This document shows positions 15,197-16,554 of a stretch of 44,509 nt of DNA, in pieces. The notes beneath the pieces were generated by a model. That model made no database searches and was not told where the DNA came from. It saw only the letters and a program-made list of their open reading frames with translations. Every line of letters begins with the position of its first letter. Position 1 is the stretch's first letter. The DNA lies in sequence record OQ442786, one strand, 5' to 3'. The position numbers were made by a program, and so were the translations under genes. Source of the stretch: Escherichia phage JSSK01.

Positions 15197-15427
15197 TCAC
15201 TCATCAATGTTACTTCGGTACTCTCGTAACTTCTCCAGACTTTCAATTGCTTCTGCTAAGTCGGTTCCTGTGTCCTTATACCCACGTAACCCCATGCACA
15301 ATAGCTTCTTCAATGCGTGCTGTAGTGCTGGGTCGCGTATATCGAAGGCGCGTAGCACATCGTAAACGTCTACGGTCATAGTGCTGCCGTGAGTGTTTGT
15401 CATTGTGCGGTTGTATTTTGAAGTCAT
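15197..15427 (-). CDS. DUF3310-like small protein
   Basis: YDVLRAF...LQHALKKLLCMGLRGYKD...TDLAEAIESLEKL loosely matches the DUF3310 pattern; ATGA-coupled to upstream phosphoesterase. Confidence 0.4.
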   Translation of the reverse strand: MTSKYNRTMTNTHGSTMTVDVYDVLRAFDIRDPALQHALKKLLCMGLRGYKDTGTDLAEAIESLEKLREYRSNIDE

Positions 15428-16554
15428 CCCAGCATCTCCGGTGAAATAGTTAAACGTGCGACCTCGCCATATTCGGCGCTATAAGTAATTACATTTGCAC
15501 TACGACCTGACATCCATCCGCCGCGAGAGGCGTAGGCGTCTTTAGCCGCTAAGGTGCGGTGTTGCTCAACAATCATGTTACGGCTTTCTACAATCTTCTG
15601 GTGGTGCAGATGGCCTACGTGGGCGTAGCTGTAAACACTCTCGCCGAACGCTTTACGGAACTTGGCAATCATAACAGGTTCAATAGCGTCGAATCGTGCT
15701 TTATGCCCGTGTGTAAAGAACAGAGTCGTTTTGCCATGTTGCACCATCTTGTAGACATCCGGCGACGTATCTACGAACACACGCGGCTCATTGTCATACA
15801 GCGTACTGAACATCTCAGCCAACCAAATCATGCCACTTTCGTCGTGATTCCCTTGCACGATAAGCAAGCGAACATTTTTATGCTTAACCAGCGCCATATC
15901 GACAACACGGCGGACCATGCGAATCATGTAGCGGACAAGTTTCTGGTAACGGGTGTCGGCGTCAAGGGCGTGACCGCTTGCAGGTGTAACGGCAACCAGA
16001 CTATCGAAGTGTGCGAAGTCGCCCAGCAGGTTAATAACCCCAGTCCCCGCATCCGGTGCTTTCTGGAATGCCGCATCGAACCAACGGGAGAACAGGTCTT
16101 CTGCAATCTTCATATCCCAGTCGTCGCCACTCTCGTCGGCCCAGGCCAGCATACCGAGATGAAAATCAGATACCGTGTAAAGATTGAGTAGCTTGTCGTC
16201 GCGTTTGGCGCGAACGGCTTTAACAGGAGCAACGGGGGTAATCTCCGACTTCATGCCCTCGATTATGGCTTTCATCAACTCGACCTGACGTTCGGCATCG
16301 GTGTCGGTCTTAACCCATTGCAACTTAGTGTTGCCGAACTCATCAACCAGCGACGATGTGCCTTTAATCTTGTAGCCATCTGGTACAAGGTGGCTAACGT
16401 CACGCCCGTGGCCTACACCTTTCTTAGCCAGCTTCGCTTTACGGATACGAATAACTCGGTCTGAGATGCCGTATTTACGGGCGATGTCTACATTCTTCAT
16501 CCCGGCGTTCAATTCTTCCTGTAACTGTTCGTCGGTTATTTTCTTCTGGGCCAT
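15424..16554 (-). CDS. HTH-domain protein fused to calcineurin-like metallophosphoesterase
   Basis: start reassigned to ATG 16554 (GAGGAAG SD); N-terminal HTH-like segment; motifs SDFHLG, GDFAHFD, GNHDE, THGH, GHLHH in canonical order. Confidence 0.7.
   Translation of the reverse strand: MAQKKITDEQLQEELNAGMKNVDIARKYGISDRVIRIRKAKLAKKGVGHGRDVSHLVPDGYKIKGTSSLVDEFGNTKLQWVKTDTDAERQVELMKAIIEGMKSEITPVAPVKAVRAKRDDKLLNLYTVSDFHLGMLAWADESGDDWDMKIAEDLFSRWFDAAFQKAPDAGTGVINLLGDFAHFDSLVAVTPASGHALDADTRYQKLVRYMIRMVRRVVDMALVKHKNVRLLIVQGNHDESGMIWLAEMFSTLYDNEPRVFVDTSPDVYKMVQHGKTTLFFTHGHKARFDAIEPVMIAKFRKAFGESVYSYAHVGHLHHQKIVESRNMIVEQHRTLAAKDAYASRGGWMSGRSANVITYSAEYGEVARLTISPEMLG

What the first reader, a model, noticed from the sequence alone, without database searches (positions are those of the whole stretch)
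15424..16554. HTH-fused calcineurin-like metallophosphoesterase of unknown target
The 376-aa protein has the five calcineurin-like phosphoesterase motifs in canonical order (DxH, GDxxD, GNHD/E, H, GHxH) after an N-terminal HTH-like segment (ITDEQLQEELNAGMKNVDIARKYGISDRVIRIRKAKL). The classic lambda-type phage phosphatase is much shorter and has no DNA-binding domain. The fusion suggests a DNA-directed nuclease or phosphodiesterase, or a phosphatase that regulates itself. Its placement in an accessory operon with an Imm-like peptide points to a role in phage-phage or phage-host conflict rather than replication.
Basis: partly seen in the sequence, partly recalled or inferred. Interest (0 to 1): 0.7.

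Follow-up and report, generated by a model that had tools for sequence, protein, structure and literature searches.

The report
HTH-fused Mre11-like phage phosphoesterase
This is a real gene for a DNA-binding-domain-plus-metallophosphoesterase protein. It belongs to a very large, already catalogued but never tested phage family, and it most likely cuts DNA, possibly as the host-chromosome-degrading enzyme that has never been identified in T1-like phages.

Summary
Window 15424-16554 on the minus strand encodes a 376-aa protein with an N-terminal helix-turn-helix and all the metallophosphoesterase (MPE) metal-binding motifs. Motif II is GDxxH, not GDxxD.

It is not a rare fusion. The window is a Kagunavirus coliphage, and the protein matches PHROG family phrog_704 ("DNA repair exonuclease") end to end. 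Full-length relatives occur in about 2,000 phage records, including T1 and TLS, and in 4,686 clusters at 50% identity.

Only the Imm-like neighbour is specific to Guernseyvirinae. Across 28 lineages the recurrent neighbours are nucleotide-metabolism genes: DUF3310, dATP/dGTP diphosphohydrolase-like, HAD phosphatase and dNMP kinase.

Best reading, which is inferred and untested: a metal-dependent DNA nuclease tethered by its HTH that degrades host DNA to feed nucleotide salvage. Rivals are end-processing or repair, and nucleotide phosphodiesterase activity.

No experimental data exist for this family. Interest is moderate.

The parts
16825..16853 (-). Sigma-70-like promoter candidate upstream of the Imm-like gene (ATCACA, 17 nt spacer, TATAAT)
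   Evidence: Consensus scan gave a 10/12 match. The region holds 5 promoter-like sites against 3.7 expected, so this is a weak pattern match only and function is not shown.
16593..16799 (-). 68-aa membrane protein of the superinfection-immunity (Imm) type; first gene of the leftward cassette
   Evidence: phrog_1039 'immunity to superinfection' at E=4.7e-23. A homolog hits PF14373 Imm_superinfect. Annotated the same way in relatives.
16405..16554 (-). Residues 1-50 of the MPE protein: tri-helical helix-turn-helix domain
   Evidence: AlphaFold helices at 8-16, 21-28 and 32-44 with pLDDT 92-95. Conserved A25/G29 HTH signature and net charge +6. HTH Pfam hits across family members. Window GerE hit E=0.02, below threshold.
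16201..16404 (-). Residues 51-118: beta-hairpin (61-70/76-85) plus long helix (87-104) linking the HTH to the catalytic core; contains family-invariant W80
   Evidence: AlphaFold secondary structure. W80 is invariant, and G65, S67 and K82 are at least 90% conserved.
15424..16200 (-). Residues 119-376 plus stop: metallophosphoesterase catalytic core
16159..16167 (-). Motif I, D130-F-H132 (within SDFHLG)
   Evidence: D130, H132 and G134 are invariant in 128 sequences. The same DxHLG form appears in the T. maritima Mre11 'SDWHLG' in the alignment.
16009..16023 (-). Motif II, G178-D179-F-A-H182 (GDxxH)
   Evidence: H182 is invariant in 128 sequences; D179 is at least 90% conserved there and invariant in the 91-sequence subset. 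It aligns with the 'GDLLH' of T. maritima Mre11.
15949..15987 (-). Family-specific conserved loop T190-P-A-S193-G194-H195-x-L197-D198-x-D200-x-R202, inserted between motifs II and III
   Evidence: D198, D200 and R202 are invariant; T190, S193, G194, H195 and L197 are at least 90% conserved. SbcD has a gap at this position in hhalign. Model pLDDT is low here, 57-69.
15841..15852 (-). Motif III, G235-N236-H237-D238
   Evidence: N236 and H237 are invariant.
15709..15711 (-). Motif IV, H282
   Evidence: Invariant.
15604..15615 (-). Motif V, G314-H315-L-H317
   Evidence: G314, H315 and H317 are invariant.
15197..15427 (-). 76-aa ORF whose ATG overlaps the MPE stop codon (ATGA), so it is probably translationally coupled
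   Evidence: Junction sequence GGGATGACT. It matches the C-terminal part of larger phage proteins (phrog_2452 at E=3.6e-35, phrog_17613 'ATPase'). The same 76-aa ORF occurs in Bas74 and in Jerseyvirus records. Other Kagunaviruses carry a HAD phosphatase plus a dNMP kinase at this position instead.
15172..15191 (-). Intrinsic-terminator-like hairpin (8 bp stem, 5 GC pairs, followed by a T-run) ending the Imm-MPE-76aa unit
   Evidence: Terminator scan. The region holds 5 such sites against 3.0 expected, but this one is the strongest and sits exactly at the end of the ORF.

Best explanation
The gene encodes a stand-alone DNA nuclease of the Mre11/SbcD/DP1-like branch of the calcineurin-like metallophosphoesterase superfamily, dependent on two metal ions (probably Mn2+ or Mg2+). 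An N-terminal helix-turn-helix and a basic linker hold the enzyme on double-stranded DNA. The catalytic core then hydrolyses phosphodiester bonds. It would do this without the Rad50/SbcC ATPase that Mre11 and SbcD need.

Its most likely biological role is to break down the host chromosome. That would shut the host down and supply deoxynucleotides to the phage's own salvage enzymes (HAD phosphatase, dNMP kinase, DUF3310 and dNTP-diphosphohydrolase-like proteins), which are repeatedly encoded next to it.

What is shown: the gene, its motifs, its fold class, its family membership, its distribution and its neighbours. What is inferred: DNA as the substrate, the tethering role of the HTH, and the host-DNA-degradation role.

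My confidence that it is a DNA nuclease is about 0.6. My confidence in the full statement, including host-DNA degradation and salvage, is about 0.35-0.4.
For: 1. Active site: the metal ligands are invariant across alignments that reach about 20% identity, so this is an active enzyme and not a decayed domain.
2. Motif style is that of Mre11/SbcD: DxHLG, GDxxH, GNHD. The profile aligns these with T. maritima Mre11.
4. A basic HTH is conserved family-wide.
5. Neighbours: 14 of 28 lineages have a DUF3310, dGTP_diPhyd_N or DUF6378 gene within 3 genes. These are immediately adjacent in 10 of 18 lineage-by-family cases against 2.9 expected, P about 1e-4. HAD_PNKP phosphatase, dNMP kinase, dUTPase, nucleotidase, ThyA and dCMP deaminase neighbours also occur.
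6. T1 and TLS carry full-length members at 46% and 45% identity. These phages degrade the host genome and reuse its nucleotides, and the responsible gene is stated to be unidentified (PMC11447400).
7. Precedents for phage MPEs that degrade host DNA: T5 A1 is necessary and sufficient in vivo and works alongside the DNA-binding protein A2 (bioRxiv 10.64898/2026.04.02.716235). Mycobacteriophage Gp48 has DNase activity in vitro (PMC12287305). T4 Mre11/Rad50 takes part in host DNA degradation (bioRxiv 10.64898/2026.07.21.739742).
8. The phage already encodes a separate recombination exonuclease and an annealing protein (phrog_69, phrog_112), so that role is already covered.
Against: - No member of phrog_704 has been tested. 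I found no paper on it.
- T5 A1 and the cluster-A mycobacteriophage Gp48 are not detectably related beyond the superfamily. They are analogies, not homologs.
- The nucleotide-enzyme neighbours fit an enzyme acting on nucleotides just as well.
- I found no report on whether Guernseyvirinae degrade host DNA.
- Adjacency to lysis genes in 5-8 lineages is unexplained.
- How the phage would protect its own DNA is unknown.
Confidence: 0.38

Rival explanations
1. It is a DNA end-processing or repair nuclease. It would trim or incise damaged or blocked phage DNA ends, working with a 3'-phosphatase, a kinase and a ligase. That would resemble an SbcD/Mre11-type activity without Rad50, or the bacterial MPE of the Lhr-MPE-ligase repair operon. 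The purpose would be recombination-dependent replication or repair of nuclease damage.
For: It has the same fold and motifs as the nucleases. Kagunavirus relatives place a PNKP-type HAD 3'-phosphatase and a P-loop kinase directly downstream. One lineage adds an ATP-dependent-ligase-like gene with a KxDG motif (L043). The Thermus phage locus has the order MPE, nucleotidase, dNMP kinase, RNA ligase. P. putida MPE is a Mn-dependent ssDNA endonuclease in a repair operon and leaves 3'-PO4 ends that would need a phosphatase (PMC7826289). PHROG and GenBank annotators call the family 'DNA repair exonuclease'.
Confidence: 0.25
2. It is a small-molecule phosphodiesterase or phosphatase acting on nucleotides. 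Possible substrates are dNTP/dNDP pools, Ap4A, 2',3'- or 3',5'-cyclic nucleotides, or cyclic-oligonucleotide immune signals. It would remodel nucleotide pools or blunt host signalling, and the HTH would serve autoregulation or localisation.
Confidence: 0.17
3. It is a trans-acting proofreading exonuclease for the phage replisome, a PolD-DP1-like small subunit. Some annotators imply this with the names 'DNA polymerase II small subunit' and 'proof-reading exonuclease'.
Against: T1-like phages carry the gene, but no DNA polymerase is annotated in the whole TLS genome. There is no DP2 partner and no OB-fold, only a two-stranded hairpin. The Kagunavirus polymerase gene is 14 kb away in another module. 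There is no sequence-level relation to DP1.
Confidence: 0.04
4. It is a protein Ser/Thr/Tyr phosphatase of the lambda-PPase type, or a transcription factor whose enzymatic domain is secondary (a self-regulating phosphatase or a regulator of late or lysis genes).
For: It belongs to the same superfamily as lambda-PPase. The N-terminus weakly hits a 'late transcriptional activator' PHROG (E=9e-4). The gene sits just upstream of the lysis genes in Drexlerviridae and some other lineages.
Confidence: 0.05

Closest known systems
Mre11 / SbcD nucleases (including T4 gp47)
   Different: No capping domain, because the protein ends 59 residues after motif V. No Rad50/SbcC partner in the genome. N-terminal HTH plus hairpin-helix module, and a family-specific TPASGHxLDxDxR loop. 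No significant profile match: hhalign probability 14.5% against E. coli SbcD, and PDB profile search E about 0.4-0.7.
Archaeal PolD small subunit DP1 (3'-5' proofreading exonuclease)
   Different: No OB fold and no DP2 polymerase partner. The gene is present in TLS, whose annotated genome has no polymerase gene. There is no sequence-level relation.
Phage T5 pre-early protein A1 (with DNA-binding partner A2)
   Same: Predicted phage metallophosphatase that is necessary and sufficient for host-DNA degradation. It acts together with a DNA-binding protein. Functionally this is the closest analogy: an MPE plus a DNA-binding module.
   Different: Different family (phrog_1745, 556 aa). BLASTP and hhalign detect nothing beyond the GNHD motif. 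The DNA-binding function is a separate gene in T5 and is fused here. A1 also controls second-step DNA transfer, which has no counterpart here.
Mycobacteriophage A10ZJ24 Gp48 (cluster-A MPE)
   Same: Early phage MPE with the five motifs. It is toxic, degrades host genomic DNA in vivo, and cleaves linear, plasmid and genomic DNA in vitro (PMC12287305).
   Different: It is a short MPE whose first motif starts at D10, so it has no HTH or linker. Any relation beyond the superfamily was not tested because I did not have its sequence.
Pseudomonas putida MPE (Lhr-MPE-ligase repair operon)
   Same: Mn-dependent DNA endonuclease in the MPE superfamily, with extra histidines essential for DNase activity (PMC7826289). 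An nr record labels a 98%-identical protein with this PDB name.
Lambda protein phosphatase / PPP family
   Same: Same superfamily and the same order of metal-binding motifs.

Membership tests
phrog_704 (PHROGs 'DNA repair exonuclease') | Full-length match to the family HMM | tested here: met
   E=5e-166, with residues 3-375 matching profile positions 1-389 of 390.
Calcineurin-like metallophosphoesterase superfamily | Five metal-binding motifs in order (DxH, GD, GNH[DE], H, GHxH) | tested here: met
   D130/H132, D179, N236/H237, H282 and H315/H317. All but D179 are invariant in 128 sequences; D179 is at least 90% conserved there and invariant in the 91-sequence subset.
Calcineurin-like metallophosphoesterase superfamily | Four-layer alpha/beta sandwich fold matching solved MPEs | tested here: met
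Calcineurin-like metallophosphoesterase superfamily | Pfam Metallophos or Metallophos_2 score above the gathering threshold | tested here: not met
   24.0 vs 27 bits and 19.5 vs 21.5 bits. Only 5 of 91 relatives hit Metallophos at E of 0.01 or better. This is a divergent clade that Pfam covers poorly.
Mre11/SbcD nuclease family | Nuclease-type motif variants (DxHLG; GDxxH) | tested here: met
   SDFHLG and GDFAH, with G134 and H182 invariant. They align with T. maritima Mre11 SDWHLG and GDLLH.
Mre11/SbcD nuclease family | Significant sequence or profile homology to Mre11/SbcD | tested here: not met
   PDB profile search E=0.44-0.74. hhalign against E. coli SbcD gives probability 14.5% over motifs II-III only.
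Mre11/SbcD nuclease family | C-terminal capping domain and Rad50-binding helices | tested here: not met
Mre11/SbcD nuclease family | Rad50/SbcC-type SMC ATPase partner encoded with it | tested here: not met
   All ORFs of 500 aa or more in the window are tail proteins (by position and the annotation of a near-identical phage), helicase, DNA polymerase or helicase-primase. None is adjacent in any of the 28 lineages.
PolD DP1 / B-subunit family | OB-fold N-terminal to the phosphodiesterase domain, plus a DP2 or polymerase partner | tested here: not met
   Only a two-stranded hairpin and a helix precede the core. TLS carries the gene but has no annotated polymerase.
PPP protein phosphatases (lambda-PPase type) | GDxHG, GDxVDRG and GNHE signature, and close structural match | tested here: not met
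T5 A1 family (phrog_1745) | Sequence or profile homology to A1 | tested here: not met
   BLASTP E=0.26. hhalign probability 0.4%. A1 maps to a different PHROG.
Class III cNMP phosphodiesterases (Rv0805/CpdA) | Fold match plus cNMP hydrolysis | tested here: inconclusive
Known anti-phage defence proteins (PADLOC) | Match to any PADLOC model | tested here: not met
   No hits for the MPE, the 76-aa ORF, the Imm-like protein or the Ant-like protein.
Any nuclease family | Metal-dependent DNA cleavage by the purified protein | not testable with these tools
   This needs biochemistry. No published assay was found for any phrog_704 member.

The most novel reading that the evidence does not exclude
phrog_704 proteins would be the unidentified host-chromosome-degrading nucleases of T1-like phages (T1 ST16, TLS gp66) and of Guernseyvirinae and many marine phages. 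They would form a widespread class of self-sufficient Mre11-like nucleases that replace the Rad50 ATPase clamp with a fused HTH DNA tether, and that feed a co-encoded nucleotide-salvage set (DUF3310, dNTP-diphosphohydrolase-like, HAD phosphatase, dNMP kinase). They would also be the upstream source of the degradation products (m6dAMP, deoxydinucleotides) that newly described defence systems sense.
Probability: 0.3. Interest if true: 0.65.

Novelty: new member of a known kind. Interest (0 to 1): 0.38.

Why it matters
On its own this gene is ordinary. A 99.5%-identical protein is already deposited and labelled, and the family is in PHROGs.

It matters for three reasons:
- The label 'DNA repair exonuclease' rests only on fold resemblance, and no member has been tested, although full-length relatives occur in about 2,000 sequenced phages (about 4% of the collection searched).
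- The literature states explicitly that the gene responsible for host-genome degradation in T1 and TLS is unknown (PMC11447400). This family is a concrete candidate that a knockout could test.
- Host-DNA breakdown products are now known triggers of several defence systems (Metis, PUA-Cal-HAD, ApeA). Identifying the nucleases that generate them in non-T-even phages would explain which phages those systems see.
- If the protein works alone, it would show how an Mre11-type active site can be used without Rad50.

Tried and rejected
- Sequence search of the PDB with the single protein and with a 128-sequence profile found nothing significant.
- NCBIfam gave only noise-level HTH hits.
- Direct comparison with T5 A1 by BLASTP and hhalign showed no relation beyond GNHD. 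I rejected homology and keep A1 as an analogy only.
- hhalign against E. coli SbcD was weak (probability 14.5%), so I rejected membership of that family.
- The BFVD viral fold search returned only uncharacterised relatives and gave no functional anchor.
- The PADLOC scan had no hits, so there is no support for a known defence component.
- I tested whether the window's 76-aa ORF belongs to DUF3310, dGTP_diPhyd_N or DUF6378. hhalign and Pfam were not significant, so I do not claim it, despite a similar-looking motif.
- I looked for a conserved partner across 28 lineages. No single neighbour family is present in more than 8 lineages, so I rejected an obligate two-gene system.
- Literature searches on Kagunavirus or Guernseyvirinae plus phosphoesterase, T1 host-DNA degradation genetics, and Drexlerviridae plus metallophosphatase found no experimental work on this family.
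- The Metis, PUA-Cal-HAD and ApeA papers map escape mutations only to T-even denA, or found no escapers.
- I recalled a classical T1 'gene 2.5' host-degradation mutant class. I could not retrieve the mapping, so it is not used as evidence.
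Full report
**1. The observation**

Window 15424-16554 contains an ORF on the minus strand. It runs from an ATG to a TGA stop and encodes 376 aa. A GAGGA ribosome-binding site lies about 8 nt upstream of that ATG. The longer GTG-initiated reading (406 aa, start at 16644) would overlap the upstream gene by about 50 nt, so the 376-aa form is the likely product.

The quoted N-terminal segment is residues 6-42. The metallophosphoesterase (MPE) motifs are D130-F-H132 (within SDFHLG), G178-D179-F-A-H182, G235-N236-H237-D238, H282 and G314-H315-L-H317.

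**2. Source and family**

The window is a complete Kagunavirus-type (Guernseyvirinae) coliphage genome. The 4-kb region around the gene matches 457 phage records by megablast. The protein is 99.5% identical to one in Escherichia phage vB_VIPECOTH07, where it is annotated 'DNA repair exonuclease'.

It matches PHROG family phrog_704 over its whole length at E=5e-166. tblastn finds it in 2,041 of 50,697 phage records, and 1,958 of those matches are full length. The hosts and groups include Kagunavirus, Jerseyvirus, Drexlerviridae (with T1 at 46% and TLS at 45% identity), Webervirus, and phages of Vibrio, Campylobacter, Rhodobacter, an N4-like roseophage and Thermus.

An exhaustive HMMER scan of 1.84 billion cluster representatives finds 4,686 clusters at E of 1e-3 or better and 1,151 at 1e-30 or better. 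Nearly all are 370-420 aa. So the HTH plus MPE architecture is ancestral to a very large family. It is not a peculiar fusion in this phage.

Pfam barely sees the catalytic domain. The window protein scores 24 bits against a threshold of 27, and only 5 of 91 relatives hit Metallophos. The N-termini of relatives hit a spread of HTH families instead: HTH_1 23, HTH_8 11, Sigma70_r4_2 9, HTH_28 9, HTH_50 8.

**3. Anatomy**

I built a 128-sequence alignment reaching about 20% identity. Two profile searches were needed because the first homolog search returned only proteins at 96% identity or more.

- Invariant residues are W80, D130, H132, G134, E141, H182, D198, D200, R202, N236, H237, H282, G314, H315, H317, D339, G346 and G363. 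D179 is at least 90% conserved in this set and invariant in a 91-sequence subset.
- A family-specific loop, T190-P-A-S-G-H195-x-L-D198-x-D200-x-R202, is inserted between motifs II and III. E. coli SbcD has a gap at that position.

AlphaFold2 on this alignment gives a confident model, with mean pLDDT 87.9 and pTM 0.75:

- a three-helix HTH (helices 8-16, 21-28 and 32-44, pLDDT 92-95);
- a beta-hairpin (61-70 and 76-85) and a long helix (87-104);
- the MPE core from residue 119 to the C-terminus.

The HTH carries the classic A25-x3-G29-[IV]-[NS]-x-R-[TS]-V signature and a net charge of +6 over residues 1-50. The conserved loop is the least confident part of the model, at pLDDT 57-69.

**4. Fold comparison**

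Foldseek agrees. Mre11 is at 1.4e-8, Rv0805 at 4.9e-8 and DP1 at about 1e-6, with TM scores of only about 0.4.

The motif forms DxHLG and GDxxH are those of Mre11, and the profile aligns them with T. maritima Mre11 SDWHLG and GDLLH. Sequence-level membership fails, however. The PDB profile search gives E about 0.4-0.7, and hhalign against E. coli SbcD gives probability 14.5%. There is no capping domain. No Rad50/SbcC-like ATPase exists in the genome, because every ORF of 500 aa or more is a tail, helicase, polymerase or helicase-primase gene.

So the protein works like an Mre11/SbcD/DP1-type nuclease domain, but it is not a member of those families. The lambda-phosphatase reading is rejected on both motifs and fold.

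**5. Local context**

The gene sits in a leftward cassette inserted between the rightward tail-tube gene (13205-14377) and the tail-assembly-chaperone gene (16952-17371). In transcription order the cassette holds:

1. a promoter-like site at 16853-16825 (10/12 match);
2. a 68-aa Imm-type membrane protein at 16593-16799 (phrog_1039);
3. the MPE gene;
4. a 76-aa ORF at 15197-15427, whose ATG overlaps the MPE stop codon (ATGA);
5. a strong terminator hairpin at 15191-15172.

An Ant-like gene follows separately at 14406-15077 (phrog_63).

The Imm-MPE pair is conserved in Kagunavirus and Jerseyvirus. What follows the MPE varies. It can be a HAD phosphatase plus a dNMP kinase, or an HNH endonuclease, or the 76-aa ORF and Ant. 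The gene called 'polynucleotide kinase' in relatives is only the PNKP-type HAD phosphatase domain (PF25109).

**6. Context across the family**

I fetched 160 loci from IMG/VR and called ORFs with my own simple caller, which misses some small genes. Clustering the MPEs gave 28 lineages at 60% identity.

No neighbour is universal. The recurrent same-strand neighbours are:

| Neighbour family | Lineages (of 28) |
|---|---|
| HNH homing endonucleases (one of two HNH families) | 8 |
| Lysozyme | 8 anywhere in the locus; 5 of the representative loci scanned |
| DUF3310 (the domain found in 'nucleotide kinase' PHROGs) | 7 |
| dATP/dGTP-diphosphohydrolase N-domain (PF18909) | 6 |
| DUF6378 | 5 |
| HAD_PNKP phosphatase | 4 |

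Single cases of dUTPase, DUF4406, a 3'-5' exonuclease and a Dam methylase also occur, and HD-phosphohydrolase-like and ligase-like neighbours are visible in the sequences. PF18909 and DUF6378 are related to each other (hhalign probability 85%).

Fourteen of the 28 lineages have one of the three small nucleotide-related families within 3 genes. Under a conservative choice of locus, these genes are immediately adjacent in 10 of 18 lineage-by-family cases, against 2.9 expected from random placement within the same loci (P about 1e-4).

Annotated phages tell the same story. The Thermus phage has the order MPE, nucleotidase, dNMP kinase, RNA ligase. The N4-like roseophage places the gene after dCMP deaminase and thymidylate synthase. 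In Drexlerviridae it follows helicase, VRR-NUC and Dam and precedes the lysis cassette.

**7. Literature**

I found no experimental study of any phrog_704 member. Four items are relevant:

- The TLS reannotation paper states that T1 and TLS degrade the host genome and reuse its nucleotides, and that the responsible early gene 'has not been identified'. It lists TLS gp66, which is this family, only as a 'proof-reading exonuclease' (PMC11447400).
- T5 A1, a predicted metallophosphatase, is necessary and sufficient for host-DNA degradation and acts with the DNA-binding protein A2 (bioRxiv 10.64898/2026.04.02.716235).
- Mycobacteriophage A10ZJ24 Gp48, a short MPE, degrades host DNA in vivo and in vitro (PMC12287305).
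- T4 Mre11/Rad50 participates in host-DNA degradation (bioRxiv 10.64898/2026.07.21.739742).

A1 is not detectably homologous to the window protein. These are functional precedents, not relatives.

**8. Interpretation**

The best-supported mechanism is a two-metal DNA nuclease held on DNA by its fused HTH and acting without an ATPase partner. I put that at about 0.6.

The most likely role is host-chromosome breakdown feeding nucleotide salvage. With the role included, my confidence is about 0.35-0.4. The support is the nucleotide-enzyme neighbourhood, the presence of the gene in T1 and TLS, and the phage MPE precedents.

The rivals are:

- a DNA end-processing or repair nuclease working with a 3'-phosphatase, kinase and ligase (about 0.25);
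- a small-molecule or nucleotide phosphodiesterase (about 0.17);
- a DP1-like proofreading subunit (about 0.04, undercut by TLS having no polymerase gene);
- a protein phosphatase or transcription regulator (about 0.05).

The broader idea of a role in phage-host conflict would still hold if the host-DNA-degradation model is right.

**9. Verdict**

The feature is real and the annotation-level identity is already known. The function is untested. Interest is moderate (0.38). It is not surprising to a specialist, but it gives a concrete and easily tested candidate for an explicitly open question in T1-like phage biology.

Noticed in passing
window 15197-15427 (-): A 76-aa ORF is probably translationally coupled to the MPE through an ATGA overlap. 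It matches only the C-terminal part of larger phage proteins (phrog_2452, phrog_17613 'ATPase'). The same free-standing ORF occurs in Bas74 and in Jerseyviruses, and the domain is embedded in 154-266-aa proteins near the MPE in another lineage. Its motif (DVYDVLRAF...KKLL..G.RG.KD..DL.EA) resembles DUF3310, but Pfam and hhalign give no significant link.
   Followed up: partly
window 14400-16950, compared with L001, L002 and L010: The leftward cassette is embedded in the rightward tail module, between the tail tube and tail-assembly-chaperone genes. It is a variable island in Guernseyvirinae. Imm and the MPE are constant, while HAD phosphatase plus dNMP kinase, HNH endonuclease, the 76-aa ORF and Ant-like genes come and go.
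   Followed up: partly
window 14406-15077 (-): This 223-aa protein matches anti-repressor Ant families (phrog_63, E=6e-57) in what appears to be a strictly lytic phage. It follows the terminator hairpin and so probably has its own promoter. Its role here is unknown.
   Followed up: no
window 15172-15191 (both strands): A GC-rich hairpin (GCCCCTTTCGGGGC core) is scored as a terminator on both strands. It lies between the 76-aa ORF and the Ant-like gene.
   Followed up: no
L013:5128-5613 and equivalent genes in relatives such as L001 7128-7613: The gene widely annotated as 'polynucleotide kinase' (phrog_415) next to the MPE in Kagunaviruses contains only the HAD phosphatase domain of PNKP (PF25109). 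The adjacent P-loop protein is annotated as a dNMP kinase. The pair could be either a split Pnkp or a nucleotidase plus kinase salvage pair.
   Followed up: partly
Loci L012-L171 (neighbours of MPE homologs): The Pfam families dGTP_diPhyd_N (PF18909) and DUF6378 (PF19905) appear to be related (hhalign probability 85%, E=6e-6). They occupy equivalent positions next to the MPE in different lineages.
   Followed up: partly
L003, L005, L172, L173, L004 and several IMG/VR loci: In Drexlerviridae and several unrelated lineages the MPE gene lies just upstream of, or within 3 genes of, holin and endolysin genes (lysozyme in 5-8 of 28 lineages). This may only mark the end of an early or middle operon, but no model here explains it.
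   Followed up: no
L172 (TLS) and L173 (T1), and L003/L005: A phage Dam methyltransferase lies 3-5 genes upstream of the MPE on the same strand in T1-like phages. The Kagunavirus window also encodes a DNA methyltransferase (28984-29667, phrog_757). This could relate to self/non-self discrimination by a host-DNA-degrading nuclease. That idea is pure speculation.
   Followed up: no
P0177, P0182, P0191 and similar; P0265: Family members occur on megabase-scale Agrobacterium and Microbulbifer contigs, presumably in prophages, and are mis-labelled 'oxidoreductase' in NCBI and UniRef. Some temperate elements therefore also carry the gene.
   Followed up: no
MPE-adjacent genes in 8 of 28 lineages (for example L010 5171-5671, L004 5241-5750, L173 8029-8511): HNH homing endonuclease genes are repeatedly inserted immediately downstream of the MPE gene. 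This suggests the locus is a frequent target or safe harbour for mobile endonucleases.
   Followed up: no
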